Shown here one piece after another: positions 1 to 29,976 of a DNA stretch of 64,000 bases. The stretch lies in assembly GCF_057098645.1 (NCBI RefSeq), contig NZ_CM169472.1. The stretch is one strand, 5' to 3'. The notes beneath the pieces were generated by a model. The model had not been told where the DNA came from. It searched no databases and saw nothing but the letters and a program-made list of their open reading frames with translations. Position numbers and translations under genes: made by a program. How positions within the stretch are numbered: the first letter of the stretch is position 1; each line of letters begins with the position of its first letter.

Positions 1-2268
1 ATGGCCGTTAAAGCCTCCGGGCGTTTTGTCCCTCCGTCAGCATTTGCCGCAGGCACCGGTGAGACGTTTACCGGTGCTTATGCATGGAACGCGCCACGCG
101 AGGCCGTCGGGCGCGAAAGACCCCTTACACGTGACGAGATGCGTCAGGTGCAAGGTGTTTTATCCACGATTAATCGCCTGCCTTACTTTTTGCGCTCGCT
201 GTTTACTTCACGCTATGACTACATCCGGCGCAATAAAAGCCCGGTGCACGGGTTTTATTTCCTCACATCCACTTTTCAGCGCCGTTTATGGCCGCGTATT
301 GAGCGCGTGAATCAGCGCCATGAAATGAACACCGACGCGTCGTTGCTGTTTCTGGCAGAGCGTGACCATTATGCGCGTCTGCCGGGGATGAATGACAAGG
401 AGCTGAAAAAGTTTGCCGCCCGTATCTCATCGCAGCTTTTCATGATGTATGAGGAACTCTGCGATGCATGGGTTGATGCACATGGCGAGAAAGAATCGCT
501 GTTTACAGATGAGGCGCAGGCGCATCTGTATGGTCATGTTGCTGGCGCTGCACGTGCTTTCAATATTTCCCCTCTCTACTGGAAAAAATACCGTAAAGGA
601 CAGATGACCACGAGGCAGGCATATTCTGCCATTGCCCGTCTGTTTAACGATGAGTGGTGGACTCATCAGCTTAAAGGCCAGCGTATGCGCTGGCATGAGG
701 CGTTACTGATTGCTGTCGGGGAGGTCAATAAAGACCGTTCTCCTTATGCCAGTAAACATGCCATTCGTGATGTGCGTGCACGCCGCCAGGCAAATCTGGA
801 ATTTCTTAAATCGTGTGACCTCGAAAACAGGGAAACCGGCGAGCGCATCGACCTTATCAGTAAGGTGATGGGCAGTATTTCTAATCCTGAAATTCGCCGG
901 ATGGAGCTGATGAACACCATCGCCGGTATTGAGCGTTACGCCGCCGCAGAGGGTGATGTGGGGATGTTTATCACTCTGACCGCGCCGTCAAAGTATCACC
1001 CGACACGTCAGGTCGGAAAAGGCGAAAGTAAAACCGTCCAGCTAAATCACGGCTGGAATGATGAGGCATTTAATCCAAAGGATGCGCAGCGTTATCTCTG
1101 CCGCATCTGGAGCCTGATGCGCACGGCATTCAAGGATAATGATTTACAGGTCTACGGTTTGCGAGTCGTCGAGCCACACCACGACGGAACGCCGCACTGG
1201 CATATGATGCTTTTTTGTAATCCACGCCAGCGTAACCAGATTATCGAAATCATGCGTCGCTATGCGCTCAAAGAGGATGGTGACGAAAGAGGAGCCGCGC
1301 GAAACCGTTTTCAGGCAAAACACCTTAACCGGGGCGGTGCTGCGGGATATATCGCGAAATACATCTCAAAAAACATCGATGGCTATGCACTGGATGGTCA
1401 GCTCGATAACGATACCGGCAGGCCGCTGAAAGACACTGCCGCGGCTGTTACCGCATGGGCGTCAACGTGGCGCATTCCGCAATTTAAAACGGTTGGCCTG
1501 CCGACAATGGGGGCTTACCGTGAACTACGCAAATTGCCTCGCGGCGTCAGCATTGCTGATGAGTTTGACGAACGCGTCGAGGCTGCACGCGCTGCCGCAG
1601 ACAGTGGTGATTTTGCGTTGTATATCAGCGCGCAGGGTGGGGCAAATGTTCCGCGCGATTGTCAGACTGTCAGGGTTGCCCGTAGTCCGTCGGATGAAGT
1701 TAACGAGTACGAGGAAGAAGTCGAGAGAGTGGTCGGCATTTACGCGCCGCATCTCGGCGCGCGTCATATTCATATCACCAGAACGACGGACTGGCGCATT
1801 GTTCCGAAAGTGCCGGTCGTTGAGCCTTTGACTTTAAAAAGCGGCATCGCCGCGCCTCGGAGTCCTGTCAATAACTGTGGAAAGCTCACCGGTGGTGATA
1901 CTTCGTTACCGGCTCCCACACCTTCTGAGCACGCCGCAGCAGTGCTTAATCTGGTTGATGACGGTGTTATCGAATGGAATGACCCGGAGGTCGTGAGGGC
2001 GCTCAGAAGCGCATTAAAACACGACCTGAGAAGACCAAACCGTCAGCAAAGAAACGGAAGCCCGTTAAAACCACATGAAATTGCACCATCGGCCAGACTG
2101 ACCCGGTCTGAACGATTGCAAATCACCCGTATCCGTGTTGACCTTGCTCAGAACGGTATCAGGCCGCAGCGATGGGAGCTTGAGGCGTTGGCGCGCGGGG
2201 CAACAGTAATTTATGAAGGTGAGCGGTTTAGTTATGCTGTAAAAGACGATTGGGTGATGTTTTCTTAA
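1..2268 (+). CDS. A: P2 gpA-like replication initiation endonuclease (rolling-circle nickase); ORF starts at window base 1 so the true 5' end may lie upstream
   Basis: 755-aa ORF with HUH-type motif HWHMMLF and tyrosine pair YIAKYISK; synteny A-cos-Q-P as in P2. Confidence 0.9.
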   Translation: MAVKASGRFVPPSAFAAGTGETFTGAYAWNAPREAVGRERPLTRDEMRQVQGVLSTINRLPYFLRSLFTSRYDYIRRNKSPVHGFYFLTSTFQRRLWPRIERVNQRHEMNTDASLLFLAERDHYARLPGMNDKELKKFAARISSQLFMMYEELCDAWVDAHGEKESLFTDEAQAHLYGHVAGAARAFNISPLYWKKYRKGQMTTRQAYSAIARLFNDEWWTHQLKGQRMRWHEALLIAVGEVNKDRSPYASKHAIRDVRARRQANLEFLKSCDLENRETGERIDLISKVMGSISNPEIRRMELMNTIAGIERYAAAEGDVGMFITLTAPSKYHPTRQVGKGESKTVQLNHGWNDEAFNPKDAQRYLCRIWSLMRTAFKDNDLQVYGLRVVEPHHDGTPHWHMMLFCNPRQRNQIIEIMRRYALKEDGDERGAARNRFQAKHLNRGGAAGYIAKYISKNIDGYALDGQLDNDTGRPLKDTAAAVTAWASTWRIPQFKTVGLPTMGAYRELRKLPRGVSIADEFDERVEAARAAADSGDFALYISAQGGANVPRDCQTVRVARSPSDEVNEYEEEVERVVGIYAPHLGARHIHITRTTDWRIVPKVPVVEPLTLKSGIAAPRSPVNNCGKLTGGDTSLPAPTPSEHAAAVLNLVDDGVIEWNDPEVVRALRSALKHDLRRPNRQQRNGSPLKPHEIAPSARLTRSERLQITRIRVDLAQNGIRPQRWELEALARGATVIYEGERFSYAVKDDWVMFS
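1852..1871 (+). other. candidate phage replication origin (A-protein nick region) inside gene A
   Basis: GCGCCTCGGAGTCCTGTCAA in the 3' third of gene A resembles my recollection of the P2 ori nick region; memory-based. Confidence 0.3.
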
Positions 2269-2351
2269 ACTGATGGCATCATGATACATTAACAAATCTG
2301 AAGCAATACTTTAGTAGTCGTGCATTAATAACTTATAAGGAATTATTATCG

Positions 2352-3674
2352 ATGAGTGCGTTAAGGGATGAAGTATCTATGAAGGTTGCGTTCTCTAATG
2401 GCATGATAAACAAATTATGCAAAAGTTTTTTTTATAGTCATGGTAAGGAGCAGCCTTGTATTCAAGTCGGTAAAGCATTAGAAGATTTTGTTTTTTGGCT
2501 TGCATATAATGATGAGGAGATTGCAAAATGTGCTAGTAGGTTATTAAAAGCATATGGCCCCCAATTAGGTATAAGTAACCTTCATAATGCGAAAAGATTA
2601 TTGTTAGGTTTTTGTTCTGAAGCCTTCAATCGCATTGATGCTGATTTTTTGTCGCTTAATCCTGATAAGATTTGTGTTGATGATATTATAACGCAAGTTC
2701 ATAGAAAAAATCTTAGTGAGATGTTTAAGTGTTATATACTTTCACGAATAAAATCCTGTCCATATATTTATAATCTTGGGTGTGCTGGCTTTGATGGGAA
2801 GCTTGAGCTTAGAGAAAATTTATTTTTATATGGCCCGGGGCTAGGGGTGGAATTACTTTCTGATATTAAAGACAAAACTGACATCAAGGTTCCTGTTGAT
2901 TTTTATGATGATGAATATATGCGGCATAAACCAATTGGGAAATATTTTCGACAGTCAAAATCCTGCTTGGTGGTGGCATATGCTTCATCAGAGGATAAAG
3001 CGGTGAAAATGTTTGATAGTTTGTTTGGAGCTTTATGTCTTGCAGTTGATAATCCTTTTGCGATTAATCGAGTTGCTGTTAATAATCTAGTTGAGTCTTT
3101 TGGTGTCGGGAAATATCATGAAAGTGAGTTTCGGGTGAATATTCCGTCTGTAAATAATTTAAATATAACGGATTCAACCTTGGCGATACTTACAAAAATA
3201 CTTTCATCACCTGATAAAAGGATGTTGTCTGCTCTTTCCTTTATAGCGCACGGGTGGAGAGATGACAAACGTGAAAGGTTTTTGAATCAATTTATAGCAT
3301 TGGATGCTATGTATGGAACCAATAATGGTAATAAAAATTCAATTATTGGCGGTGTTTGCAGAGATGCGGCGAAAATTATTGATATTGATTCAAAAATAGG
3401 AATAATCTATGAGCTTAGGTGTAAGTTTGTTCATGGAGATATTTCATCGTTATCTGATAATGATAGCTATCGAAAGTTTATTGATAGCTATGGCGTGGAC
3501 CCTATTGTTTCTCTTTTTGAAATTCTTAAAGAATGCGTCCTTAATTATAATGGTACTTACAAAACGCCAAAAGATGTTGGAAAGGCAGATAGGTCTATTT
3601 GCGTTCCTGCTGAGTTGCTTCCAGCGGTTGAGAGGATGATAGCGGAATACAGTGGAGTTAAAAAAACAAACTAA
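2352..3674 (+). CDS. hypothetical protein; AT-rich cargo gene at the tin/old position of P2; candidate anti-phage defence protein with C-terminal Rx4H (HEPN-like) motif
   Basis: 440-aa ORF, visibly AT-rich and Lys/Ile/Asn-rich unlike flanking phage genes; motif R356-CKFV-H361-GD; sits between gene A and cos. Confidence 0.75.
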   Translation: MSALRDEVSMKVAFSNGMINKLCKSFFYSHGKEQPCIQVGKALEDFVFWLAYNDEEIAKCASRLLKAYGPQLGISNLHNAKRLLLGFCSEAFNRIDADFLSLNPDKICVDDIITQVHRKNLSEMFKCYILSRIKSCPYIYNLGCAGFDGKLELRENLFLYGPGLGVELLSDIKDKTDIKVPVDFYDDEYMRHKPIGKYFRQSKSCLVVAYASSEDKAVKMFDSLFGALCLAVDNPFAINRVAVNNLVESFGVGKYHESEFRVNIPSVNNLNITDSTLAILTKILSSPDKRMLSALSFIAHGWRDDKRERFLNQFIALDAMYGTNNGNKNSIIGGVCRDAAKIIDIDSKIGIIYELRCKFVHGDISSLSDNDSYRKFIDSYGVDPIVSLFEILKECVLNYNGTYKTPKDVGKADRSICVPAELLPAVERMIAEYSGVKKTN

Positions 3675-3815
3675 AGATGTTCTTTTTAGCCTCGCCTGCA
3701 TTAGGTGCATAAATTTGCATTCATTTTCAAATATATCTTTTGACAGCGAGCACCAGAACAGGCGCTTGCCGGGGGGATGATGCACCTGCATTAAAACCGC
3801 CCCATGAAGCGGGCG

Positions 3816-3834
3816 GGCGAGGCGGGGAAAGCAC
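3816..3834. other. cos: cos site (19-nt cohesive-end sequence of P2-type phages)
   Basis: GGCGAGGCGGGGAAAGCAC matches the remembered P2/186 cohesive-end sequence and lies immediately upstream of Q as expected. Confidence 0.6.
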
Positions 3835-4003: not shown

Positions 4004-5038
4004 TCAGCCGTTGTCAGTGTCCAGTGAGTAGTTTTTAAAGCGGATGACCTCCTGACCGAGCCAGCCGTTTATCTCGCGGATCCTGTCCTGTAGCGGGATA
4101 AGCTCATTGCGGACAAAGACCTTTACCACTTTCTCAATATCACCCAGCGACCCGACGTTCTCCGGCTTGCCGCCCATCAACTGAAAGGGGATGCGGTGCG
4201 CGTCCAGCAGGTCAGCGGCGCTGGCTTTTTTGATATTAAAAAAATCGTCCTTCGTTGCCACTTCACTGAGCGGGATAATTTTAATGCCGTCGGCTTTCCC
4301 CTGCGGGGCATAGAGAAACAGGTTTTTAAAGTTGTTGCGGCCTTTCGACTTGACCATGTTTTCGCGAAGCATTTCGATATCGTTGCGATCCTGCACGGCA
4401 TCGGTGACGTACATGATATATCCGGCATGAGCGCCGTTTTCGTAATACTTGCGGCGGAACAGCGTGGCCGACTCATTCAGCCAGGCAGAATTAAGGGCGC
4501 TGAGATATTCCGGCAGGCCGTACAGCTCCTGATTAATATCCGGCTCCAGCAGGTGAAACACGGAGCCGGGCGCGAAGGCTGTCGGCTCGTTGAAGGACGG
4601 CACCCACCAGTAAACATCCTCCTCCACGCCACGGCGGGTATATTTTGCCGGTGAGGTTTCCAGTCTGATGACCTTACCGGTGGTGCTGTAACGCTTTTCC
4701 AGAAACGCATTACCGAACACCAGAAAATCCAGCACAAAGCGGCTGAAATCCTGCTGGGAAAGCCACGGGTGCGGAATAAACGTTGAAGCCAGAATATTAC
4801 GTTTGACGTAAATCGGTGAGCTGTGATGTACGGCAGCACGCAGGCTTTTTGCCAGACCGGTAAAGCTGACCGGTGGCTCATACCATCTGCCGTTACTGAT
4901 GCACTCGACGTAATCCAGAATGTCACGGCGGTCGAGTACCGGCACCGGTTCACCAAAGGTGAATGCCTCCATTTTCGGGGCGCTGGCGGTCATTTTTTTT
5001 GCCGCAGGTTGCGGTGTTTTCCCTTTTTTCTTGCTCAT
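4004..5038 (-). CDS. Q: portal protein (P2 gpQ-like)
   Basis: 344-aa ORF, same length as P2 Q; position and divergent QP/ONML arrangement. Confidence 0.93.
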   Translation of the reverse strand: MSKKKGKTPQPAAKKMTASAPKMEAFTFGEPVPVLDRRDILDYVECISNGRWYEPPVSFTGLAKSLRAAVHHSSPIYVKRNILASTFIPHPWLSQQDFSRFVLDFLVFGNAFLEKRYSTTGKVIRLETSPAKYTRRGVEEDVYWWVPSFNEPTAFAPGSVFHLLEPDINQELYGLPEYLSALNSAWLNESATLFRRKYYENGAHAGYIMYVTDAVQDRNDIEMLRENMVKSKGRNNFKNLFLYAPQGKADGIKIIPLSEVATKDDFFNIKKASAADLLDAHRIPFQLMGGKPENVGSLGDIEKVVKVFVRNELIPLQDRIREINGWLGQEVIRFKNYSLDTDNG

Positions 5039-6810
5039 CAGTAAAACTCCAGAATGGTGGATGTCAGCGGGGTGCTGATACCGGCGGTGAGTGGCTCATT
5101 TAACAGGGCGTGCATGGTCGCCCAGGCGAGGTCGGCGTGGCTGGCTTCCTCGCTGCGGCTGGCCTCATAGGTGGCGCTGCGTCCGCTGCTGGTCATGGTC
5201 TTGCGGATAGCCATAAACGAGCTGGTGATGTCGGTGGCGCTGACGTCATATTCCAGACAGCCACGGCGAATAACGTCTTTTGCCTTGAGCACCATTGCGG
5301 TTTTCATTTCCGGCGTGTAGCGGATATCGCGTGCGGCGGGATAGAACGAGCGAACGAGCTGGAACACGCCGACACCGAGGCCGGTGGCATCAATTCCGAT
5401 GTATTCGACGTTGTATTTTTCGGTGAGTTTGCGGATGGATTCAGCCTGGGTGGCAAAGTCCATGCCTTTCCACTGGTGACGTTCAAGTATTCTGAATTTG
5501 CCACCGGCCACCACCGGCGGTGCCAGCACCACGCATCCGGCACTGTCGCCACGGTGTGACGGGTCGTAACCAATCCATACCGGGCGGGAGCCGAACGGAT
5601 TGGCGGCAAAGGGTGCATAGTCTTCCCATTCTTCCAGCGTGTCGACCATGCAGCGTTGCAGCTCCTCGAACGGGAACACCGACGCCTTGTCGTCAACAAA
5701 TTCACACATGAACAGGTTTTTAAAATCGTCGGCGCTGTTTTCGCGTTTGAGCTGCTCAATGTCGAACAGCGTGCAGCCACCTTTCAGGGCGTCCTCAATG
5801 GTGACAATCTGTCGCCACTGGCCGTCCGCACAGAGAAGCCCACCGGCAAGGGCGTTATGACTGACGTCGATTTCCACGCGTTCGGCGGCGCTGGCGCGTC
5901 CCCGGTTATACAGTTCACCCGACCAGAACGGGTAGGCGTCGTGCGCCAGCGTGGACGGGGTGGAGAAATAGGTCGAACGCAGGTGACTCTGTGAGGCCAT
6001 ACCTGATGCCACCTTACGCAGTACCTGAAAATTCGGGATCCAGAAAATCTCGTCGACGTACAGGTCGCCGTTATGGCTCTGCGCGGTGTTGGAGTTGGTG
6101 CCGAGAAAAATCAGTTTTGCGCCGTTATTGCCCAGGACAATCGGATCACCGGTCAGGTCAACGTCAACCAGACGGGCAAAGGCGATGATGTATTCGCGGA
6201 ACACATACGCCTGCGTTTTACTGGCCGACAGAAAAATCTGGTTATGACCGGTTTTCAGGGCGCGCAGCAGCGCCTCGCGGGAAAAATAAAATGTCGCGCC
6301 AATCTGGCGGGATTTCAGGATATCGCGGATGCGGTGCTCAAGCCCGGCGCGATACCAGTGCAACTGATAATCGAAAGACTGCTCAAAGAAAATCTGCTCC
6401 AGCTTTTCGATGGCCTCGTCACTGAAAAAATTCTTTTTCGGTTTGCGCCGCCCGCCTTTGTTGCGGTTAGCGACGTTCGGATTAAGGTCTGCCTCGTTGC
6501 CGGTCTGGCTGTAGCGGTTTACCCGTGCCAGTCGTTCAATCTGGCGTCCGAGCAGGTCAATTTCCTTGAAATCACCGCCGGTTTTCTGCGGTTTGATGAT
6601 GAGCTGGGTCAGCCGCGCTTCCAGACTCATTTCGACACGGCTGATGGGGGCAACGCTGTCCCAGCCGTCGCGCTGTTTCCAGCTCTGCACCGTCGGGCGT
6701 TTCATCTGCAACATGGCGGCAATCTGCGGCACGGAAAATCCCTGCCAGTACAGCAGCGCCGCCTGACGACGCGGGTCGTGTAAAAGAGTGGTGTCTGTGG
6801 TGATGGTCAT
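5038..6810 (-). CDS. P: terminase large subunit / ATPase (P2 gpP-like)
   Basis: ORF track 5038..6840; start trimmed to internal Met (MTITTDTT...) giving 590 aa as in P2 P. Confidence 0.9.
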   Translation of the reverse strand: MTITTDTTLLHDPRRQAALLYWQGFSVPQIAAMLQMKRPTVQSWKQRDGWDSVAPISRVEMSLEARLTQLIIKPQKTGGDFKEIDLLGRQIERLARVNRYSQTGNEADLNPNVANRNKGGRRKPKKNFFSDEAIEKLEQIFFEQSFDYQLHWYRAGLEHRIRDILKSRQIGATFYFSREALLRALKTGHNQIFLSASKTQAYVFREYIIAFARLVDVDLTGDPIVLGNNGAKLIFLGTNSNTAQSHNGDLYVDEIFWIPNFQVLRKVASGMASQSHLRSTYFSTPSTLAHDAYPFWSGELYNRGRASAAERVEIDVSHNALAGGLLCADGQWRQIVTIEDALKGGCTLFDIEQLKRENSADDFKNLFMCEFVDDKASVFPFEELQRCMVDTLEEWEDYAPFAANPFGSRPVWIGYDPSHRGDSAGCVVLAPPVVAGGKFRILERHQWKGMDFATQAESIRKLTEKYNVEYIGIDATGLGVGVFQLVRSFYPAARDIRYTPEMKTAMVLKAKDVIRRGCLEYDVSATDITSSFMAIRKTMTSSGRSATYEASRSEEASHADLAWATMHALLNEPLTAGISTPLTSTILEFY

Positions 6811-7838: not shown

Positions 7839-7892
7839 CCGGCGTCAGTCCGGGAAAACCTTCACGATTAACCCTTAATTTCAGGAAAAACT

Positions 7893-21202: not shown

Positions 21203-21299
21203 AGTGCTCCTGGATTTTCTCTTTCTGGACATTGACGTCTCCACTGGTTTAAACACGGCAATGGAGACTGTGGTGAAAAGAGTTAATTCCCGGAGTGAC

Positions 21300-21434
21300 T
21301 GGCAGGATGCCAATCAATGATCGGAAGCATGCCAAATCGTGATCGATTGTGATGCCAAACTGTGATCGGAGATGGATGCCAAATCATGATCGATTCGAAT
21401 GCCAAACTGCGATCGATTCAGATGCCATTTTGCA
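21300..21434. repeat. tandem ~20-bp terminal repeats of the IS21-family element (transposase binding sites)
   Basis: five to six copies of GATGCCAAA(C/T)NGTGATCGAT-like units; similar units inverted at the other end (18796..18880). Confidence 0.7.
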
Positions 21435-22592: not shown

Positions 22593-23186
22593 ATGCTTAT
22601 TGGCTATGTACGCGTGTCAACAAATGACCAGAACACGGAATTGCAGCGTAATGCGCTGGAGTGCGCAGGATGTGAGCTGATTTTTGAGGACAAAATCAGC
22701 GGCACGAAGTCCGACAGGCCGGGGCTGAAAAAACTGCTCAGAACATTATCGGAAGGTGACACTCTGGTTGTCTGGAAGCTGGACAGGCTGGGGCGTAGTA
22801 TGCGGCATCTGGTCATTCTGGTTGAGGAACTGCGCGAACGCGGCGTTAATTTTCGCAGCCTGACGGATGCTATTGATACCAGCACGCCGATGGGGCGTTT
22901 TTTCTTTCATGTGATGGGTGCCCTGGCTGAAATGGAGCGAGAACTCATTGTCGAGCGGACACGCGCCGGACTGGAAGCGGCCAGAGCCAAAGGTCGTATT
23001 GGTGGCAGACGACCGAAACTCACCGCGAGTGAGTGGGAGCAGGCCGGGCGTTTGCTGGCTGCAGGGGAGTCACGTCAACGCGTGGCACTGATTTTTGATA
23101 TTGGTCTGTCCACGCTCTATAAAAAATTTCCCTCATCAGCGACAAAGAATAAATTGTGTCATCCCTTAGCCAACCGGGACAAATAG
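22593..23186 (+). CDS. serine DNA invertase (Gin/Hin/Cin/Pin family)
   Basis: MLIGYVRVSTNDQ catalytic-serine N-terminus and C-terminal HTH; start trimmed from ORF-track 22548. Confidence 0.9.
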   Translation: MLIGYVRVSTNDQNTELQRNALECAGCELIFEDKISGTKSDRPGLKKLLRTLSEGDTLVVWKLDRLGRSMRHLVILVEELRERGVNFRSLTDAIDTSTPMGRFFFHVMGALAEMERELIVERTRAGLEAARAKGRIGGRRPKLTASEWEQAGRLLAAGESRQRVALIFDIGLSTLYKKFPSSATKNKLCHPLANRDK

Positions 23187-23245: not shown

Positions 23246-24436
23246 ATGAGTGACTATCATCACGGCGTGCAGGTGCTGGAGATTAACGACGGCACCCGCG
23301 TCATTTCCACCGTATCCACGGCCATTGTCGGCATGGTCTGCACGGCCAGCGATGCAGATGCGGAAACCTTCCCCCTCAATAAACCGGTGCTGATTACCAA
23401 TGTGCAGAGCGCAATTGCAAAGGCCGGTAAAAAAGGCACGCTGGCGGCGTCGTTACAGGCCATCGCTGACCAGTCAAAACCGGTCACCGTTGTTGTGCGC
23501 GTGGAAGACGGCACCGGCGACGACGAAGAAACGAAACTTGCGCAGACCGTTTCCAATATCATCGGCACCACCGACGAAAACGGTCAGTACACCGGACTGA
23601 AAGCCCTGCTGGCGGCGGAGTCGGTAACCGGTGTTAAACCGCGTATTCTCGGCGTGCCGGGACTGGATACCAAAGAGGTGGCTGTTGCACTGGCATCAGT
23701 CTGTCAGAAGCTGCGCGCTTTCGGGTATATCAGCGCATGGGGCTGTAAAACCATTTCCGAGGTGAAAGCCTACCGCCAGAATTTCAGCCAGCGTGAGCTG
23801 ATGGTCATCTGGCCGGATTTCCTCGCATGGGATACGGTCGCCAGTACCACTGCCACCGCGTATGCCACCGCCCGTGCACTGGGGCTGCGTGCCAAAATCG
23901 ACCAGGAGCAGGGCTGGCATAAAACGCTGTCCAATGTCGGGGTGAACGGTGTTACCGGCATCAGCGCGTCCGTATTCTGGGATTTGCAGGAGTCCGGCAC
24001 CGATGCTGACCTGCTTAACGAGTCAGGCGTCACAACGCTGATTCGCCGTGACGGTTTCCGCTTCTGGGGTAACCGTACCTGCTCTGATGACCCGCTGTTC
24101 CTCTTTGAAAACTACACCCGCACCGCGCAGGTGCTGGCCGACACGATGGCTGAGGCGCACATGTGGGCGGTGGACAAGCCCATCACCGCAACGCTGATTC
24201 GCGACATCGTTGACGGCATCAATGCCAAATTCCGTGAGCTGAAAACAAACGGCTATATCGTGGATGCGGCCTGCTGGTTCAGCGAAGAATCCAACGATGC
24301 GGAAACCCTCAAGGCCGGAAAACTGTATATCGACTACGACTATACACCGGTGCCTCCTCTCGAAAACCTGACCCTGCGCCAGCGTATTACCGATAAATAC
24401 CTGGCAAATCTGGTCACTTCGGTTAACAGCAATTAA
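23246..24436 (+). CDS. FI: tail sheath protein (P2 gpFI-like)
   Basis: 396-aa ORF, same length as P2 FI; synteny. Confidence 0.93.
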   Translation: MSDYHHGVQVLEINDGTRVISTVSTAIVGMVCTASDADAETFPLNKPVLITNVQSAIAKAGKKGTLAASLQAIADQSKPVTVVVRVEDGTGDDEETKLAQTVSNIIGTTDENGQYTGLKALLAAESVTGVKPRILGVPGLDTKEVAVALASVCQKLRAFGYISAWGCKTISEVKAYRQNFSQRELMVIWPDFLAWDTVASTTATAYATARALGLRAKIDQEQGWHKTLSNVGVNGVTGISASVFWDLQESGTDADLLNESGVTTLIRRDGFRFWGNRTCSDDPLFLFENYTRTAQVLADTMAEAHMWAVDKPITATLIRDIVDGINAKFRELKTNGYIVDAACWFSEESNDAETLKAGKLYIDYDYTPVPPLENLTLRQRITDKYLANLVTSVNSN

Positions 24437-24448
24437 GGAGCCTGACCG

Positions 24449-24967
24449 ATGGCAATGCCGCGCAAACTCAAGTTAATGAACGTCTTTCTGAACGGCTACA
24501 GCTATCAGGGCGTCGCGAAGTCCGTCACGCTGCCAAAACTGACCCGTAAGCTCGAAAACTATCGCGGTGCGGGGATGAACGGCAGCGCACCGGTAGACCT
24601 CGGCCTTGATGACGATGCGCTGTCAATGGAGTGGTCGCTCGGTGGCTTCCCGGATTCGGTTATCTGGGAGCTTTACGCCGCAACCGGTGTGGATGCCGTA
24701 CCGATTCGTTTTGCAGGCTCTTACCAGCGCGACGATACCGGCGAAACGGTGGCCGTCGAGGTGGTCATGCGTGGACGTCAGAAAGAAATCGACACCGGCG
24801 AGGGTAAACAGGGAGAAGACACCGAGTCGAAAATCTCCGTGGTCTGCACCTATTTCCGGCTGACGATGGACGGTAAGGAGCTGGTCGAAATCGACACCAT
24901 CAACATGATTGAGAAGGTGAACGGCGTCGACCGGCTGGAGCAACACCGCCGCAATATCGGCCTGTGA
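24449..24967 (+). CDS. FII: tail tube protein (P2 gpFII-like)
   Basis: 172-aa ORF; synteny. Confidence 0.92.
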   Translation: MAMPRKLKLMNVFLNGYSYQGVAKSVTLPKLTRKLENYRGAGMNGSAPVDLGLDDDALSMEWSLGGFPDSVIWELYAATGVDAVPIRFAGSYQRDDTGETVAVEVVMRGRQKEIDTGEGKQGEDTESKISVVCTYFRLTMDGKELVEIDTINMIEKVNGVDRLEQHRRNIGL

Positions 24968-25023
24968 TTTTCATCCGGTCAGCCTGGCTGACCGGTTAAC
25001 CCCGATTCATAAGTGAGAAAACC

Positions 25024-25299
25024 ATGAACAAAGAAAATGTGATTACCCTGGACAATCCGGTCAAACGTGGTGAGCAGGTTATCGAACAGGTCACGCTGAT
25101 GAAACCCAGTGCCGGGACGCTGCGCGGTGTCAGTCTGGCAGCGGTCGCAAACTCCGAAGTCGATGCACTGATTAAGGTGTTGCCGCGCATGACGGCACCG
25201 ATGCTGACCGAGCAGGAAGTCGCCGCACTGGAACTGCCTGACCTTGTGGCGCTGGCCGGTAAGGTGGTCGGTTTTTTGTCGCCGAACTCGGTGCAGTGA
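25024..25299 (+). CDS. E: tail assembly chaperone (P2 gpE-like)
   Basis: 91-aa ORF between the tube and tape-measure genes. Confidence 0.88.
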   Translation: MNKENVITLDNPVKRGEQVIEQVTLMKPSAGTLRGVSLAAVANSEVDALIKVLPRMTAPMLTEQEVAALELPDLVALAGKVVGFLSPNSVQ

Positions 25300-25451
25300 C
25301 GTTTCCGAAAAATCTCTCGGTCGATGACCTGATGGCGGATGTGGCAGTGATATTTCACTGGCCGCCATCAGAACTGTATCCCATGAGCCTGACCGAACTC
25401 ATCACATGGCGCGAAAAGGCGCTCCGGCGAAGCGGAAACACGAATGAGTAA
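25024..25451 (+). CDS. E': E+E' extended chaperone made by -1 programmed frameshift at T_TTT_TTG (25272..25278)
   Basis: slippery heptamer near the 3' end of E; the -1 frame stays open to 25451, overlapping the T start. Confidence 0.7.
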
Positions 25452-27891
25452 CAATGTAAAATTACAGGTATTGCTCAGGGCTGTTGACCAGGCATCCCGC
25501 CCGTTTAAATCCATCCGCACAGCGAGCAAATCGCTGTCGGGGGATATCCGGGAAACACAAAAATCACTGCGCGAGCTGAACGGTCAGGCGTCCCGTATTG
25601 AGGGATTTCGCAAGACCAGTGCACAGCTTGCCGTGACTGGTCATGCACTTGAAAAGGCACGGCAGGAAGCCGAAGCCCTTGCCACACAGTTTAAAAACAC
25701 CGAACGTCCGACCCGTGCTCAGGCGAAAGTGCTGGAATCCGCAAAGCGTGCGGCGGAGGACTTACAGGCGAAATATAACCGCCTGACGGATTCTGTTAAA
25801 CGCCAGCAGCGGGAACTGGCCGCTGTGGGAATTAATACCCGCAATCTTGCACATGATGAGCAGGGACTGAAAAACCGTATCAGTGAAACCACCGCACAGC
25901 TTAACCGGCAGCGTGATGCGCTGGCGCGTGTCAGTGCACAACAGGCAAAACTTAACGCAGTAAAACAGCGTTATCAGGCCGGAAAAGAACTGGCCGGAAA
26001 TATGGCCTCGGTGGGCGCTGCCGGTGTGGGGATTGCGGCGGCGGGAACGATGGCCGGAGTTAAGTTGCTGATGCCCGGTTATGAGTTTGCGCAGAAAAAC
26101 TCAGAATTGCAGGCCGTGCTCGGAGTGGCAAAAGACTCCGCCGAAATGACCGCACTACGCAAACAGGCGCGCCAGCTCGGTGACAACACCGCCGCCTCGG
26201 CGGATGATGCGGCCGGTGCACAGATAATCATCGCGAAAGCGGGTGGGGATGTTGATGCCATTCAGGCGGCAACGCCGGTCACGCTGAATATGGCGCTGGC
26301 GAACCGCCGCACGATGGAAGAAAACGCCGCCCTGCTGATGGGGATGAAATCCGCCTTTCAGCTTTCAAACGATAAGGTCGCTCATATCGGGGATGTTCTC
26401 TCCATGACGATGAACAAAACCGCCGCCGATTTTGACGGCATGAGCGATGCGCTGACCTATGCCGCACCTGTGGCAAAAAATGCCGGTGTCAGCATTGAAG
26501 AAACCGCCGCAATGGTCGGGGCGCTGCATGATGCAAAAATCACAGGCTCAATGGCGGGGACGGGAAGCCGTGCCGTGTTAAGTCGCCTGCAGGCACCGAC
26601 GGGAAAAGCATGGGATGCACTCAAAGAGCTTGGCGTGAAAACCTCAGACAGTAAGGGGAATACCCGACCAGTATTTACCATTCTGAAAGAAATGCAGGCC
26701 ATCTTTGAGAAAAACCGGCTCGGTACTGCCCAGCAGGCTGAATACATGAAAACTATTTTCGGGGAGGAGGCCAGCTCAGCCGCCGCCGTGCTGATGACTG
26801 CCGCCTCAACCGGAAAGCTGGACAAACTGACCGCCACACTGAAAGCCTCAGACGGTAAAACGGAAGAGCTGGTTAAAATCATGCAGGACAACCTCGGCGG
26901 TGACTTTAAGGAGTTTCAGTCCGCTTATGAGGCGGTGGGGACTGACCTGTTTGACCAGCAGGAAGGCACACTGCGTAAGCTCACGCAGACGGCCACAAAG
27001 TATGTGTTAAAACTCGACGGCTGGATCCAGAAAAACAAATCACTGGCGTCAACCATCGGCCTCATTGTCGGTGGCGCACTGGCGCTTACTGGCATCATCG
27101 GTGCAATTGGTCTTGTAGCCTGGCCGGTTATCACCGGCATTAATGCCATCATCGCGGCAGCAGGCGCAATGGGGGCAATCTTCACGACGGTTGGCAGTGC
27201 TGTTATGACCGCCATCGGGGCGATTAGCTGGCCGGTTGTGGCTGTGGTGGCCGCTATTGTCGCCGGGGCGTTGCTTATCCGTAAATACTGGGAGCCTGTC
27301 AGCGCATTCTTTGGCGGTGTGGTGGAAGGGCTGAAAGCGGCATTTGCGCCGGTGGGGGAACTGTTCACGCCACTTAAGCCGGTGTTTGACTGGCTGGGCG
27401 AAAAGTTACAGGCCGCGTGGCAGTGGTTTAAAAACCTGATTGCCCCGGTCAAAGCCACCCAGGACACCCTGAACCGTTGCCGTGACACGGGCGTCATGTT
27501 CGGGCAGGCACTGGCTGACGCGCTGATGCTGCCGCTTAATGCGTTCAACAAACTGCGCAGCGGTATTGACTGGGTACTGGAAAAACTCGGCGTCATCAAC
27601 AAAGAGTCAGGCACGCTTGACCAGACCGCCGCCAGAACTCATGCCGCCACGTATGGCACCGGTGGTTATATTCCGGCGACCAGCTCTTATGCTGGCTATC
27701 AGGCTTATCAGCCAGTTACGGCACCGGCTGGCCGCTCTTATGTGGACCAGAGTAAAAACGAATATCACATCAACCTGACGGGCGGTACTGCGCCGGGGAC
27801 ACAGCTCGACCGCCAGTTACAGGATGCGCTCGAAAAATACGAGCGGGATAAACGTGCGCGCGCCCGTGCCAGCATGATGCATGACGGTTAA
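25444..27891 (+). CDS. T: tail tape measure protein (P2 gpT-like)
   Basis: 815-aa ORF, coiled-coil N-terminus and Gly/Ala-rich TM segments. Confidence 0.93.
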   Translation: MSNNVKLQVLLRAVDQASRPFKSIRTASKSLSGDIRETQKSLRELNGQASRIEGFRKTSAQLAVTGHALEKARQEAEALATQFKNTERPTRAQAKVLESAKRAAEDLQAKYNRLTDSVKRQQRELAAVGINTRNLAHDEQGLKNRISETTAQLNRQRDALARVSAQQAKLNAVKQRYQAGKELAGNMASVGAAGVGIAAAGTMAGVKLLMPGYEFAQKNSELQAVLGVAKDSAEMTALRKQARQLGDNTAASADDAAGAQIIIAKAGGDVDAIQAATPVTLNMALANRRTMEENAALLMGMKSAFQLSNDKVAHIGDVLSMTMNKTAADFDGMSDALTYAAPVAKNAGVSIEETAAMVGALHDAKITGSMAGTGSRAVLSRLQAPTGKAWDALKELGVKTSDSKGNTRPVFTILKEMQAIFEKNRLGTAQQAEYMKTIFGEEASSAAAVLMTAASTGKLDKLTATLKASDGKTEELVKIMQDNLGGDFKEFQSAYEAVGTDLFDQQEGTLRKLTQTATKYVLKLDGWIQKNKSLASTIGLIVGGALALTGIIGAIGLVAWPVITGINAIIAAAGAMGAIFTTVGSAVMTAIGAISWPVVAVVAAIVAGALLIRKYWEPVSAFFGGVVEGLKAAFAPVGELFTPLKPVFDWLGEKLQAAWQWFKNLIAPVKATQDTLNRCRDTGVMFGQALADALMLPLNAFNKLRSGIDWVLEKLGVINKESGTLDQTAARTHAATYGTGGYIPATSSYAGYQAYQPVTAPAGRSYVDQSKNEYHINLTGGTAPGTQLDRQLQDALEKYERDKRARARASMMHDG

Positions 27892-27905
27892 GGAGGTGAC
27901 GAAAA

Positions 27906-28385
27906 ATGATGCTCGCGTTAGGTATGTTTGTTTTTATGCGCCAGACGCTGCCACACCAGACCATGCAGCGTGAATCAGATTATCGCTGGCCGTCAAATTC
28001 CCGTATCGGTAAACGGGATGCCTTTCAGTTTCTCGGTGTGGGTGAGGAAAACATTACGCTTGCCGGTGTGCTTTATCCCGAACTGACCGGCGGCAAGCTG
28101 ACGATGACCACGCTCAGGCTGATGGCAGAGGAAGGTCGGGCGTGGCCGTTGCTGGATGGCACCGGCATGATTTACGGCATGTATGTCATCAGCAGGGTGA
28201 GTGAAACAGGGAGTATTTTCTTTGCAGACGGCACACCCCGAAAAATTGATTTTACGCTGTCGCTCACCCGCGTGGATGAATCACTGGCCGCGCTTTATGG
28301 CGATATCGGTAAACAGGCGGAATCGCTCATCGGTAAGGCTGGCAGTATGGCGACTAAATTCACGGGGATGACGGGGGCGGGATAA
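27906..28385 (+). CDS. U: tail protein (P2 gpU-like)
   Basis: 159-aa ORF; synteny. Confidence 0.9.
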   Translation: MMLALGMFVFMRQTLPHQTMQRESDYRWPSNSRIGKRDAFQFLGVGEENITLAGVLYPELTGGKLTMTTLRLMAEEGRAWPLLDGTGMIYGMYVISRVSETGSIFFADGTPRKIDFTLSLTRVDESLAALYGDIGKQAESLIGKAGSMATKFTGMTGAG

Positions 28386-29548
28386 TGCTGGATGCGCTGA
28401 CATTTGATGCAGGCAGTACGCTGACGCCGGATTACATGCTGATGCTCGACAGCAGGGATATTACCGGCAATATCAGCGACCGTCTGATGAGCATGACCCT
28501 GACGGATAACCGGGGCTTTGAGGCTGACCAGCTTGATATTGAACTGAACGACGCCGACGGGCAGGTAGGGCTGCCGGTTCGTGGCGCTGTCCTGACGGTG
28601 TATATCGGCTGGAAAGGTTTTGCCCTGGTATGCAAAGGGAAATTTACCGTTGATGAGGTTGAACACCGGGGCGCGCCGGATGTGGTCACCATCCGCGCCC
28701 GGAGTGCAGATTTTCGCGGGACGCTCAATTCCCGCCGGGAAGGCTCCTGGCATGACACCACGCTCGGTGCGATTGTTGAGGCGATTGCCTCCCGTAACAG
28801 GCTGGAAGCCAGTGTCGCTCCGTCACTGGCCGGAATTAAAATCCCGCACATCGATCAGTCGCAGGAGTCTGATGCGAAATTCCTGACCCGTCTAGCAGAA
28901 CGCAACGGCGGTGAGGTGTCGGTAAAAATGGGAAAACTGTTGTTTCTCAAAGCGGGGCAGGGGGTGACGGCCAGCGGTAAAAAAATCCCGCAGATTACCA
29001 TCACCCGCAGCGACGGCGACCGTCATCATTTTGCGATTGCTGACCGTGGAGCCTACACCGGCGTAACGGCAAAGTGGTTACACACCAAAGACCCGAAGCC
29101 ACAAAAGCAGAAGGTAAAACTGAAACGCAAAAAGAAAGAGAAACACCTGCGCGCACTGGAGCACCCGAAAGCGAAACCGGTCACGCAGAAGAAAGCGCCA
29201 AAAGTACCGGAAGCGCGCGAAGGTGAATACATGGCCGGTGAGGCTGACAATGTTTTTGCCCTGACCACGGTATATGCCACGAAAGCGCAGGCCATGCGCG
29301 CCGCTCAGGCGAAGTGGGACAAACTGCAACGGGGCGTCGCGGAGTTCTCCATCAGTCTGGCTACCGGTCGGGCAGATATTTACACGGAAACGCCGGTCAA
29401 AGTGTCAGGCTTTAAGCGCGTCATAGACGAGCAGGACTGGACAATCACTAAGGTGACACACTTTCTGAATAATAGCGGCTTCACGACGTCCTTGGAGCTT
29501 GAGGTCAGGCTTTCTGATGTGGAGTACGAAACAGAAGATGATGAGTGA
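28385..29548 (+). CDS. D: tail protein (P2 gpD-like, late control gene D)
   Basis: 387-aa ORF; synteny. Confidence 0.92.
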   Translation: MLDALTFDAGSTLTPDYMLMLDSRDITGNISDRLMSMTLTDNRGFEADQLDIELNDADGQVGLPVRGAVLTVYIGWKGFALVCKGKFTVDEVEHRGAPDVVTIRARSADFRGTLNSRREGSWHDTTLGAIVEAIASRNRLEASVAPSLAGIKIPHIDQSQESDAKFLTRLAERNGGEVSVKMGKLLFLKAGQGVTASGKKIPQITITRSDGDRHHFAIADRGAYTGVTAKWLHTKDPKPQKQKVKLKRKKKEKHLRALEHPKAKPVTQKKAPKVPEAREGEYMAGEADNVFALTTVYATKAQAMRAAQAKWDKLQRGVAEFSISLATGRADIYTETPVKVSGFKRVIDEQDWTITKVTHFLNNSGFTTSLELEVRLSDVEYETEDDE

Positions 29549-29629: not shown

Positions 29630-29848
29630 ATGTTTCATTGTCCTTTATGCCAGCATGCCGCACATGCGCGTACAAGTCGCTATATCACTGACACGACAAA
29701 AGAGCGTTATCACCAGTGCCAGAACGTGAATTGCAGCGCCACGTTCATCACTTATGAGTCGGTACAGCGATACATCGTGAAGCCGGGAGAAGTCCACGCC
29801 GTAAGGCCGCACCCGTTGCCGTCAGGGCAGCAAATTATGTGGATGTAA
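29630..29848 (+). CDS. ogr: late transcription activator Ogr (zinc-finger)
   Basis: 72-aa ORF MFHCPLCQHAAH...CQNVNC with four Cys; start trimmed from ORF-track 29555. Confidence 0.9.
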   Translation: MFHCPLCQHAAHARTSRYITDTTKERYHQCQNVNCSATFITYESVQRYIVKPGEVHAVRPHPLPSGQQIMWM

Positions 29849-29860
29849 TTACAAACAGAA

Positions 29861-29886
29861 AGCCCCTCAGTCGAGGGGCTTTTTTT
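29861..29886 (+). terminator. intrinsic terminator after ogr
   Basis: AGCCCCTC-AGTC-GAGGGGCT hairpin followed by TTTTTTT. Confidence 0.75.
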
Positions 29887-29976
29887 GTCGATGTGGTCAA
29901 TGTGTGGACGTGACCAGAAATAAATCCTTTTATTTCATGCAATTAGATATCAAAAAATGTCACCAATAACTGACAT
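29887..29976. other. attR: attR: prophage right attachment region with Int arm-type repeats and a core overlapping the pflA start
   Basis: direct repeats TGTGGTCA / TGTGGACG resemble the P2 Int arm-site consensus TGTGGACA; host-like sequence resumes at ~29962. Confidence 0.5.
29950..29976 (-). pseudogene. pflA: pflA 5' fragment: native start codon plus five codons (MSVIG) fused to phage sequence, reading MSVIGDIF-stop
   Basis: reverse complement ATGTCAGTTATTGGT sits ~191 nt downstream of the pflB stop, where pflA starts in E. coli; the frame hits a stop after 8 codons. Confidence 0.7.

What the first reader, a model, noticed from the sequence alone, without database searches (positions are those of the whole stretch)
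1..29976. P2-like prophage with conserved backbone and several variable insertions
Gene order A, cos, Q-P, O-N-M-L-X-Y-K-lysABC-R-S, V-W-J-I-H-G, FI-FII-E/E'-T-U-D, ogr is the P2 order, and most ORF lengths equal the P2 lengths I recall (Q 344, N 357, M 247, V 211, W 115, J 302, FI 396, T 815, U 159, D 387 aa). The early region (int, C, cox, B) must lie upstream of the window. Departures from the backbone are concentrated at four places: A-cos, S-V, the tail fibre/G region and the att junction.
Basis: partly seen in the sequence, partly recalled or inferred. Interest (0 to 1): 0.4.

Follow-up and report, generated by a model that had tools for sequence, protein, structure and literature searches.

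The report
P2-like prophage with swapped cargo genes
This is an ordinary P2-type prophage of E. coli sitting in the start of the pflA gene, whose conserved backbone is interrupted at the already-known variable spots by two candidate anti-phage genes, a flip-flop tail-fibre switch and a recent insertion sequence.

Summary
Window 1-29974 is the A-to-ogr part of a P2-like (Peduovirus) prophage. 26 P2 proteins are found in P2 order, and 22 of them are at least 92% identical over essentially their full length. The cos site, ori nick sequence, E/E' slippery site and ogr are all intact.

About 68% of the DNA aligns to P2 at about 97%. The rest falls in three blocks:
- **A-cos (2220-3815):** a lone 440-aa protein with a C-terminal HEPN RNase domain. 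Its Rx4H motif is kept in 118 of 119 distant relatives.
- **S-V (12939-14635):** a lone 414-aa Orc1/Cdc6-like AAA+ ATPase, related to the PADLOC candidate PDC-S59.
- **I-FI (16937-23165):** a Mu G-segment-like invertible tail-fibre cassette with a Gin-type invertase, carrying a private ISSso4 (IS21-family) insertion in the tail-fibre assembly gene.

The right end is an attR whose 13-bp core covers the first codons of pflA.

These variable spots are published P2 accessory and defence hotspots, so the architecture is known. The two cargo genes are catalogued, and I found no experimental test of either. The early region cannot be seen. The window starts exactly at the A start codon, probably a record-rotation artefact. 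Relatives at the same att site do carry int-C-cox-B.

The parts
1..2268 (+). Gene A (replication endonuclease, 755 aa). The ori nick sequence lies at 1848-1867.
   Evidence: 97% identical to P2 gpA over 755 aa. The ori sequence is identical to P2 29880-29899. Window 1-11 is also the 3' end of orf83.
2352..3674 (+). Cargo 1: a lone 440-aa protein with an N-terminal domain of unknown fold and a C-terminal HEPN domain (R356-x4-H361). It is a candidate abortive-infection RNase.
3816..3834 (.). cos site, the 19-nt cohesive end GGCGAGGCGGGGAAAGCAC.
   Evidence: Aligns to P2 position 1 onward. Sequence read; P2 annotation.
4004..6810 (-). Q (portal, 4004-5038) and P (large terminase, 5038-6810).
   Evidence: 99.1% and 99.8% identical to P2.
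6984..10810 (+). O, N, M, L, X and Y (scaffold, capsid, small terminase, head completion, tail X, holin).
   Evidence: 97-100% identical to P2 proteins over their full length.
10810..11733 (+). K-lysA in-frame fusion (307 aa), made by a 14-bp deletion between GGCGTACCG repeats near 11279.
   Evidence: Alignment to P2 7418-7560. The exact protein occurs in at least 12 contigs, in prophages with other cargo.
11721..13163 (+). lysB, lysC, R and S. The 3' half of S, from 12939, is not P2-like.
   Evidence: S is 57% identical.
13209..13243 (-). Terminator-like hairpin with a 15-bp stem, between S and cargo 2.
13264..14508 (-). Cargo 2: a lone 414-aa AAA+ ATPase (Walker A GPSKSGKT, Walker B IFIDDF). 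The best structural matches are AAA+ initiator-type ATPases.
14615..17111 (+). V, W, J and I (baseplate). The 3' end of I, from 16937, is pro483-like rather than P2-like.
17108..18388 (+). H, the tail fibre (426 aa): a constant part followed, after the crossover site, by the currently expressed variable part.
   Evidence: Pfam Phage_tail_fib N-terminal domain at 1.3e-62. This exact protein is seen on only one other contig.
17922..17948 (.). Left crossover site of the invertible segment, TTCTCGCATACC-TT-GGTTTGGGAGAA.
   Evidence: Inverted repeat I1, 27 nt and 81% complementary to 22511-22537.
18391..18795 (+). G (tail-fibre assembly gene), codons 1-135. The last 12 codons and the stop lie at 21441-21479, beyond the IS.
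   Evidence: Pfam Caudo_TAP. Reading frame reconstructed. pro483 has a 147-aa version.
18796..21434 (-). ISSso4-like IS21-family element (2639 bp) with a 6-bp target duplication CCAGAT (18790-18795 and 21435-21440). istA is about 19667-21232 and istB about 18895-19650.
   Evidence: IstB_IS21, rve and transpos_IS21 hits. Full-length 100% identical copies exist elsewhere in E. coli. No other complete genome has this junction.
21451..22565 (-). Silent alternative set: a tail-fibre assembly gene (21451-22056) and an alternative fibre C-terminus with a collar domain (22053-22565).
   Evidence: Caudo_TAP at 1.2e-31 and Collar at 2e-15. PHROG tail-fibre families.
22511..22537 (.). Right crossover site of the invertible segment.
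22593..23186 (+). Serine DNA invertase of the Gin/Cin/Pin type (197 aa).
   Evidence: Resolvase plus HTH_7 domains. Matches Mu Gin (3UJ3) at 1.6e-94 over residues 1-182.
23246..29548 (+). FI, FII, E/E' (slippery GGTTTTTTG near 25270), T, U and D.
   Evidence: 97.7-100% identical to P2. The slippery site is identical to P2.
29630..29848 (+). ogr (late-gene activator, 72 aa), followed by a terminator-like hairpin at about 29858-29886.
   Evidence: 100% identical to P2 Ogr. Ogr_Delta zinc finger. Sequence.
29962..29974 (.). attR core ACCAATAACTGAC, the reverse complement of GTCAGTTATTGGT at the start of pflA. The pflA ATG is at 29976-29974 on the minus strand.
   Evidence: The same 13 bp is found at attL of CFSAN061770 and at both ends of the pro483 record.

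Best explanation
Window 1-29974 is the replication-gene-to-ogr portion of a P2-like temperate phage (Peduovirus, closest to P2 and pro483). It is integrated in E. coli by a pro483-type tyrosine integrase at a 13-bp core that covers the first codons of pflA.

The essential late operons are P2-like and intact. Non-homologous DNA has been exchanged by recombination at the family's known variable sites.

1. **Between A and cos.** A single low-G+C gene encodes a 440-aa protein whose C-terminus is a HEPN RNase domain. I infer a prophage-borne abortive-infection nuclease. The N-terminal domain would hold the HEPN dimer inactive until an infection cue arrives, after which cellular RNA, most likely tRNA, is cut.

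2. **Between S and V.** A single oppositely oriented gene encodes an Orc1/Cdc6-like AAA+ ATPase. I infer, weakly, an ATP-dependent nucleic-acid sensor or blocker that acts against other phages.

3. **In place of P2 H-G-fun(Z).** A Mu G-segment-like cassette is present. A Gin-type invertase flips a ~4.6-kb segment between two 26-bp sites, exchanging the fibre C-terminus and its chaperone and so switching host range.

An ISSso4 copy has recently landed in the chaperone gene of the orientation now expressed, and a 14-bp deletion fuses the endolysin K to LysA.

**Shown:** homology, boundaries, domains, motifs, repeats and genomic contexts.
**Inferred:** defence function, RNase activity, actual inversion, and presence of the early region.
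For: **Backbone**
- Gene order and lengths.
- 22 P2 proteins at 92-100% identity, plus I at 82% and S at 57% over full length, K truncated after residue 159, and H matching over its N-terminus only.
- Four DNA blocks at 94.5-97% identity to P2.
- 258 phage records hit, led by pro483 and P2-type phages.
- cos, ori nick and the E/E' slippery sequence are conserved.

**Attachment site**
- The 13-bp core is shared by the window's attR, the attL of CFSAN061770 and both ends of the pro483 record.
- 387 of 5426 complete E. coli genomes have a P2-like right end joined to pflB.

**Early region**
- It is present directly upstream of A in a relative at the same site.

**Hotspots**
- The A-Q locus is a published defence hotspot (PMC9122126).
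- Further P2 hotspots within the late genes are reported in bioRxiv 10.64898/2026.02.27.708500.

**Cargo 1**
- R356 and H361 are conserved in 118 of 119 distant relatives.
- It is a lone gene in the same A-Q slot of Enterobacter P2-like prophages, and sits in a Vibrio defence island beside CBASS.
- Its near-identical copy is listed in the hotspot table of PMC9122126.

**Cargo 2**
- PDC-S59 at 2.8e-31.
- A 57%-identical homologue occupies the same S-V slot in Serratia P2-like prophages.

**Invertible cassette**
- Gin match at 1.6e-94.
- Inverted 12-2-12 sites.
- Opposed fibre and chaperone genes.
- The same layout is annotated in pro483.

**Insertion sequence**
-.
Against: - The early region and attL are not in the window, so completeness is inferred from relatives.
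- No experiment links either cargo gene to defence.
- Cargo 2 has no recognisable effector domain. Its PDC-S59 match covers only residues 37-296.
- No convincing sigma-70 promoter was found upstream of either cargo gene; the scans were at chance level.
- Neither cargo occurs in any of 50,697 deposited phage genomes, apart from one 31% match for cargo 2.
- The K-lysA fusion and the split G gene could mean the prophage no longer makes plaques.
Confidence: 0.85

Rival explanations
1. The element is a decaying or truncated prophage remnant, not a functional phage. It would be cut off at gene A, lysis-impaired by the K-lysA fusion, and fibre-impaired by the IS in G.
For: - The window begins at A and shows no early genes.
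- A 14-bp deletion removes the K stop codon.
- ISSso4 splits G.
Against: - The window starts exactly at the A ATG. Other rotated chromosome records match at the same offset, and in the one inspected the early genes lie at the record's end.
- The orf83 tail is present at window 1-11.
- All other late genes are full length at 92-100% identity.
- The identical K-lysA allele occurs in several prophages with different cargo, which suggests it is tolerated.
- The IS spares the second fibre and chaperone set, which inversion would bring into use.
- The IS junction is private to this genome, so it is recent.
Confidence: 0.12
2. The two cargo genes are not anti-phage systems. They would be morons with another role, for example an addiction toxin or host-RNA regulator for the HEPN protein, and a replication, partition or transposition-type DNA-loading ATPase serving the phage itself for the AAA+ protein.
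For: - Cargo 2 is structurally closest to initiator and loader ATPases: Orc1/Cdc6, MuB, TnsC and clamp loaders.
- About a quarter of P2 A-Q loci carry partition systems and some carry toxins (PMC9122126).
- Cargo 1 has no hit to any curated defence model.
Against: - Both are single, low-G+C genes in slots where known exclusion genes sit (old and tin at A-cos in P2).
- Cargo 1 homologues lie beside CBASS and RES-domain genes in Vibrio.
- Cargo 2 matches a PADLOC defence-candidate model and is spread across phyla at 54-59% identity, as mobile defence genes often are.
- P2 replication and packaging need neither gene (established P2 genetics; P2 itself lacks both).
Confidence: 0.3
3. Cargo 1 is simply a short member of the characterised ApeA family (HEPN tRNA anticodon nuclease activated by small-molecule ligands), not a separate family.
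For: - PMC9122126 Table S5A labels the near-identical WP_063267205 'HEPN_Apea'.
- Both are single-gene HEPN proteins with large N-terminal regions.
Against: - No HMMER hit to Pfam HEPN_Apea or to any PADLOC ApeA model, even at E up to 10.
- Ten distant relatives also lack Pfam hits.
- Cargo 1 is 440 aa, whereas the Ec2ApeA domain boundaries run to residue 583, with N-terminal, Mid and split-HEPN domains (bioRxiv 10.64898/2026.01.26.701840).
Confidence: 0.2

Closest known systems
Bacteriophage P2 (NC_001895)
   Same: Same gene order. 68% of the region aligns at about 97% DNA identity. cos, the ori nick sequence, the E/E' frameshift site and Ogr are identical or nearly so.
   Different: - old, tin and orf91 are replaced by the HEPN gene.
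- orf30 is replaced by the AAA+ gene.
- H, G and fun(Z) are replaced by an invertible fibre cassette.
- The att site is different, which implies a different integrase.
- K and lysA are fused.
Escherichia phage pro483 (NC_028943)
   Same: The best phage match, with 71% of window 1-25000 covered at 96.8%. It has the same fibre layout (fibre, chaperone, opposed chaperone, opposed collar fibre, invertase) and the same right end and att core.
   Different: - pro483 carries a DUF4238 gene in the A-Q slot and nothing between S and V.
- Its expressed fibre tip and chaperone differ.
- It has no IS, and K and lysA are separate.
P2 A-Q (old/tin) defence hotspot and other P2 accessory hotspots (Rousset et al. 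2022, PMC9122126; Moura de Sousa et al. 2026 preprint)
   Same: Cargo 1 lies in exactly this locus, and its near-identical copy is in their locus table. Cargo 2 lies within the late genes, where the preprint reports further hotspots.
   Different: I found no test of either gene. The 'Putative HEPN' construct tested from strain S88 is a different protein.
Mu G segment / P1 C segment / e14 P segment with Gin/Cin/Pin invertases
   Same: A Gin-like serine invertase (1.6e-94 to Mu Gin). Inverted 26-bp sites of 12-2-12 form, one of them inside the fibre gene. Two opposed sets of fibre C-terminus and chaperone.
   Different: It sits in a P2 backbone between I and FI. The segment is enlarged to about 4.6 kb by an IS21-family insertion. 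The enhancer was not examined.
ApeA and other single-protein HEPN abortive-infection nucleases (DARNA, PrrC, RloC)
   Same: A lone gene with a large N-terminal region and a C-terminal HEPN domain with invariant Rx4H. It is carried on mobile elements.
   Different: No sequence-profile match to ApeA models. It is shorter. The N-terminal domain resembles no solved structure.
PADLOC candidate PDC-S59
   Same: HMM match at 2.8e-31 over the ATPase region, and a single-gene arrangement.
   Different: The match stops at residue 296 of 414. No paper in the searchable library mentions PDC-S59, so no function is on record.

Membership tests
Peduovirus (P2-like) prophage | P2 order of replication, packaging, head, lysis and tail genes, with homologous proteins | tested here: met
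   26 P2 proteins found in P2 order, 22 of them at 92-100% identity. DNA blocks at 94.5-97%.
Peduovirus (P2-like) prophage | 19-nt cos site between A and Q | tested here: met
   GGCGAGGCGGGGAAAGCAC at 3816-3834, aligned to P2 position 1.
Peduovirus (P2-like) prophage | Ogr/Delta zinc-finger late activator at the right end | tested here: met
   100% identical to P2 Ogr. Pfam Ogr_Delta at 2.2e-21.
Peduovirus (P2-like) prophage | Early region (int, C, cox, B) and attL | not testable with these tools
   It lies outside the window. It is present upstream of A in CFSAN061770 at the same att site, and at the record end in TUM13064. The orf83 tail is at window 1-11.
Gin/Cin/Pin-type invertible tail-fibre segment | Serine DNA invertase adjacent to the segment | tested here: met
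   Resolvase plus HTH_7 domains. 1.6e-94 to Mu Gin 3UJ3.
Gin/Cin/Pin-type invertible tail-fibre segment | Two inverted ~26-bp crossover sites, one inside the fibre gene | tested here: met
   17922-17948 and 22511-22537, 81% complementary, of 12-2-12 form with a central TT.
Gin/Cin/Pin-type invertible tail-fibre segment | Alternative fibre C-terminus and chaperone in opposite orientation | tested here: met
   Collar-domain ORF at 22053-22565(-) and Caudo_TAP ORF at 21451-22056(-).
Gin/Cin/Pin-type invertible tail-fibre segment | Observed inversion and a Fis-dependent enhancer | not tested
   Needs reads or other assemblies of the same strain. The enhancer was not searched for.
HEPN superfamily | Rx4-6H motif on a conserved helix | tested here: met
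   LRCKFVHG. R356 is invariant and H361 nearly so in the family. Both are conserved in 118 of 119 distant relatives.
HEPN superfamily | Helical-bundle HEPN fold | tested here: met
ApeA defence system | Match to the HEPN_Apea (Pfam) or ApeA (PADLOC) profiles | tested here: not met
   No hit, even at E up to 10.
ApeA defence system | N-terminal, Mid and split-HEPN three-domain architecture | tested here: inconclusive
   Cargo 1 is 440 aa, while the Ec2ApeA domain boundaries run to residue 583. ApeA structures did not appear in the PDB searches, so no direct comparison was possible.
PADLOC PDC-S59 candidate | Profile match over the protein | tested here: inconclusive
   E 2.8e-31 and 107 bits, but only residues 37-296 of 414 against profile positions 37-292 of 428.
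IS21 family (ISSso4-like) | istA transposase plus istB helper ATPase, repeated terminal motifs, a short target duplication | tested here: met
   transpos_IS21 at 1.1e-84. IstB_IS21 at 2.4e-60. Terminal repeat families D1, D2, I4 and I5. CCAGAT duplication. 100% identical full-length copies elsewhere, annotated ISSso4.

The most novel reading that the evidence does not exclude
The 440-aa A-cos cargo protein represents an unnamed, untested family of single-gene HEPN abortive-infection nucleases. Its ~280-aa N-terminal sensor domain has no counterpart among solved structures. The family is distinct from ApeA and is carried in the P2 old/tin slot in enterobacteria and in defence islands in Vibrio. 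In the same prophage, an effector-less Orc1/Cdc6-like ATPase that recurs in the S-V slot of P2-like phages of different genera would be a second, mechanistically new single-protein defence.
Probability: 0.4. Interest if true: 0.45.

Novelty: new member of a known kind. Interest (0 to 1): 0.22.

Why it matters
The architecture itself adds nothing new. P2-like phages are already the textbook case of a fixed backbone with swappable accessory loci.

The practical value is a well-delimited example carrying two compact, single-gene defence candidates for which I found no experimental test, each with clear catalytic motifs to mutate.

It also shows how fast these elements change. This genome has a private IS insertion, a shared endolysin-LysA fusion allele, and cargo that differs from every close relative examined.

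Tried and rejected
- **tRNA and Rfam.** No tRNA gene in the window and no Rfam family in 1-30200, so the att site is not a tRNA and no known phage RNA was found.
- **Cargo 1, sequence profiles.** Pfam, PADLOC and NCBIfam gave nothing, even at permissive thresholds. PHROGs only returned its own family of unknown function.
- **Cargo 1, structure.** The PDB sequence search and whole-protein Foldseek against the PDB gave nothing usable. The AFDB50 library was unavailable.
- **Distant relatives of cargo 1.** Scanning ten of them for a named family gave no Pfam hits and only two chance-level PADLOC hits.
- **Rousset et al. 'Putative HEPN' test construct.** I checked whether it was this protein; it is not.
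- **Literature.** Searches for PDC-S59 and for P2-like integration at pflA found nothing.
- **Promoters.** Scans around both cargo genes were at chance level.
- **Source genome.** I looked for the same genome in the complete-genome collection to read the upstream region, but no identical record exists. The best flank match is 98.6% over 25000-36000, and 99.13% for the host part alone.
- **P2 orf30, fun(Z), old and tin.** All rejected as being present (no tblastn hit).

Full report
**1. The observation**

The ORF map of window 1-30000 shows, in order: a 755-aa ORF starting at base 1; Q (344 aa) and P on the minus strand; O, N (357), M (247), L, X and Y; a 307-aa ORF; lysB, lysC, R and S; V (211), W (115), J (302) and I; a 426-aa fibre gene; FI (396), FII and E; T (815), U (159) and D (387); and ogr. 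These lengths equal those annotated for P2.

tblastn with P2 proteins recovers 22 of them at 92-100% identity over essentially full length. S is 57% and I is 82% identical. H matches only in its N-terminal 255 residues. K matches only to residue 159. G, int, C, cox, B, orf30, fun(Z), tin and old give no hit.

DNA alignment gives four P2 blocks:

| Window | P2 |
|---|---|
| 1-2219 | 28034-30252 |
| 3816-12938 | 1-9139 |
| 14636-16936 | 10329-12629 |
| 23166-29937 | 17572-24342 |

All are 94.5-97% identical and together make up 68% of the region. The first two gaps are also compositional islands, at 38-42% G+C against 53-62% for the backbone.

**2. Identity and boundaries**

A megablast against 50,697 phage records finds 258 matches. 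The best are pro483, then P2-type phages from Escherichia, Salmonella and Yersinia.

The following backbone features are conserved:
- The cos sequence GGCGAGGCGGGGAAAGCAC lies at 3816-3834.
- The ori nick sequence is at 1848-1867, and the E/E' slippery site GGTTTTTTG near 25270 is unchanged.
- A TTGT-N12-ACAA dyad of the kind bound by Ogr lies upstream of V at about 14555-14574, even though that DNA is not P2-like. Matching it to the Ogr-site consensus rests on my own reading.

On the right, P2 identity ends at 29937, but pro483 identity continues to 29974, which is the last base of the pro483 record. The 13 bases at 29962-29974 (ACCAATAACTGAC) recur at the attL of a related lysogen and at the left end of pro483. 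Read on the other strand, they are GTCAGTTATTGGT, the G of the pflA start codon followed by codons 2-5. The ATG is at 29976-29974, followed by the 191-bp pflB-pflA spacer and pflB.

The rest of the window, 29700-64000, is colinear with E. coli pflB-focA-ycaO through mukFEB to aspC at 99.13% identity and without indels. A P2-like right end joined to pflB in this way occurs in 387 of 5426 complete E. coli genomes.

**3. The missing early region**

The window starts exactly at the A start codon. Three other E. coli chromosome records (TUM13064, NR2550, NR1441) match the A-cos block at coordinates 2220-3815, identical to the window's. In TUM13064, A is annotated at 1-2268, and int, C, cox, B and orf80-83 lie at the end of the circular record.

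The most likely reason is an assembly pipeline that rotated the chromosome to begin at this 'replication' gene. That reason is my inference.

Bases 1-11 of the window are identical to the last 11 bases of P2 orf83, including its stop codon. In strain CFSAN061770, which has a prophage at the same att site and shares window 3780-16936 at 98%, int-C-cox-orf78-B-orf80-83 lie directly upstream of A.

**4. Variable site 1, A to cos (2220-3815)**

One ORF (2352-3674, + strand, 440 aa) replaces P2 orf91, tin and old.
- It has no hit in Pfam, PADLOC or NCBIfam, even at E up to 10.
- It belongs to a small gammaproteobacterial family of 26 clusters with a strongly conserved C-terminal third.
- A profile search of 1.8 billion representatives finds 234 more distant proteins, most of them about 400-480 aa and matching only that C-terminal region.
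- In 119 of these of at least 250 aa, R356 and H361 of the motif LRCKFVHG are conserved in 118, G362 in 117 and D318 in 116. This is the HEPN Rx4-6H signature.
- The N-terminal ~280 residues match nothing.

In Enterobacter, a 62%-identical homologue sits alone in the same A-Q slot of a P2-like prophage. In Vibrio, a 49%-identical homologue lies in islands beside CBASS, a RES-domain gene and an integrase, always flanked by the same 222-aa and HNH genes.

The A-Q locus is the published P2 defence hotspot (PMC9122126). That paper's locus table lists WP_063267205 as a single-gene 'HEPN_Apea' arrangement. WP_063267205 is the protein of the TUM13064 copy, which is 99.5% identical in DNA. It is not among the systems they cloned; their 'Putative HEPN' from strain S88 is a different protein. 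No deposited phage genome encodes it.

My reading is a prophage-borne abortive-infection RNase. By analogy with ApeA and DARNA, it would be a tRNA anticodon nuclease switched on by an infection signal (bioRxiv 10.64898/2026.01.26.701840 and 10.64898/2026.02.22.705581). The analogy is functional only, because the ApeA profile tests failed.

**5. Variable site 2, S to V (12939-14635)**

The breakpoints lie inside S and 21 nt into V, so the swap carried a new 3' half of S with it. One ORF on the opposite strand (13264-14508, 414 aa) is followed by a 15-bp-stem hairpin.

It has Walker A GPSKSGKT and Walker B IFIDDF motifs, weak AAA_22/ATPase_2 hits, and a PADLOC PDC-S59 match at 2.8e-31 covering residues 37-296. 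The family is large, with 1707 clusters, and is unusually conserved: 54-59% identity from Aeromonas and Serratia to Chloroflexi, Verrucomicrobia-like and Desulfuromonas records.

A 57%-identical homologue occupies the same S-V slot, in the same opposite orientation, in Serratia P2-like prophages. In a marine gammaproteobacterium it is chromosomal, beside a 300-aa unknown gene. Only 11 complete E. coli genomes carry this block.

A defence role is plausible from position and from the PADLOC match, but the mechanism is a guess.

**6. Variable site 3, I to FI (16937-23165)**

P2 H, G and fun(Z) are replaced by a layout that pro483 also has. It consists of a fibre gene H (17108-18388), a chaperone G, an opposed chaperone (21451-22056), an opposed collar-domain fibre C-terminus (22053-22565), and a serine invertase (22593-23186). 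The invertase matches Mu Gin at 1.6e-94.

A 27-nt inverted repeat pairs 17922-17948, inside H, with 22511-22537, at the 5' end of the silent C-terminus. Both arms have the 12-2-12 form with a central TT. The resemblance to hix and gix sites is from memory. Inversion would join the constant part of H to the collar-domain tip and bring the intact second chaperone into the operon.

Inside the segment, a 2639-bp IS21-family element (18796-21434; istA and istB) splits G after codon 135 of 147, with a CCAGAT target duplication. Full-length copies that are 100% identical, annotated ISSso4, occur in many E. coli chromosomes and plasmids. It is the only copy in the window. No complete E. coli genome shares this junction, so the insertion is recent and private.

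**7. A fifth, small departure**

A 14-bp deletion between two GGCGTACCG repeats removes the last six codons and the stop codon of K, and reads in frame into lysA. The result is a 307-aa endolysin-LysA fusion.

The identical protein occurs on at least 12 contigs. On those long enough to show the slots, the A-Q cargo is different and the S-V slot is empty. A PHROG family covers its first 234 residues. It is thus a circulating allele rather than a one-off lesion. Its effect on lysis is unknown.

**8. Comparison and verdict**

This is a P2-like prophage of the pro483 integration type.

The pattern of a fixed backbone with a few exchangeable loci is established knowledge for this family (PMC9122126; bioRxiv 10.64898/2026.02.27.708500). 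Tail-fibre inversion and IS insertions are likewise familiar.

What is specific here is the cargo combination and two uncharacterised single-gene candidates. Among the relatives inspected or listed, none carried both cargo genes.

I rate it a new member of a known kind, of low general interest, with moderate interest for defence-system screening.

Noticed in passing
window 1-11, and records NZ_CP135653.1, NR2550 and NR1441: The window starts exactly at the ATG of phage gene A. Three other E. coli chromosome records match at the same offset, and in the one inspected A is at 1-2268 and the prophage early region wraps to the end of the record. This looks like a start-fixing step that mistook the P2 replication endonuclease for the chromosome's start gene.
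   Followed up: partly
window 29962-29976; L005 2040-2200; L002 1-110: The att core covers the pflA start. At attL the phage supplies a new ATG and a 20-codon leader (MSNLTNCNTTENTATAGATK) 30 nt after the int stop. Lysogens therefore encode PflA with a phage-derived N-terminus, separated from pflB by the whole prophage. 387 of 5426 complete genomes have a P2-like end at this site. No paper on this was found.
   Followed up: partly
window 10810-11733 (deletion near 11279): A 14-bp deletion between GGCGTACCG repeats fuses endolysin K to the membrane protein LysA. The identical 307-aa protein is found in prophages with different cargo, so the allele spreads by recombination or is tolerated.
   Followed up: partly
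window 18796-21434: A full-length ISSso4-like IS21-family element with a 6-bp CCAGAT duplication lies inside the invertible segment. It is 100% identical to copies on E. coli plasmids and chromosomes. The junction is found in no other complete E. coli genome.
   Followed up: yes
window 13264-14508 (protein residues 91-137): The AAA+ cargo protein has a 47-residue Ser/Thr/Gly-rich insert predicted as disordered, yet K117 within it is invariant across phyla. The family as a whole is 54-59% identical between distant phyla.
   Followed up: no
L006-L008 (Vibrio contigs), genes flanking 6001-7278: Vibrio homologues of the HEPN cargo are always flanked by the same 222-aa unknown gene and a 374-aa HNH_5 gene. 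This holds in three different surroundings, one of them beside CBASS and a RES-domain gene. It may be a three-gene module there, whereas the P2 copies are solitary.
   Followed up: no
window 12939-13163 and 14615-14635: The recombination breakpoints of the S-V cargo block fall inside the S and V coding sequences. The swap therefore also replaced the C-terminal half of the tail-completion protein S, which is 57% identical to P2 S overall.
   Followed up: partly
window 29700-64000: Ordinary E. coli core genes (pflB, focA, ycaO, serC, aroA, rpsA, msbA, mukFEB, ldtD, aspC). They are colinear with strain AHM21C2872I at 99.13% identity with no insertions.
   Followed up: yes
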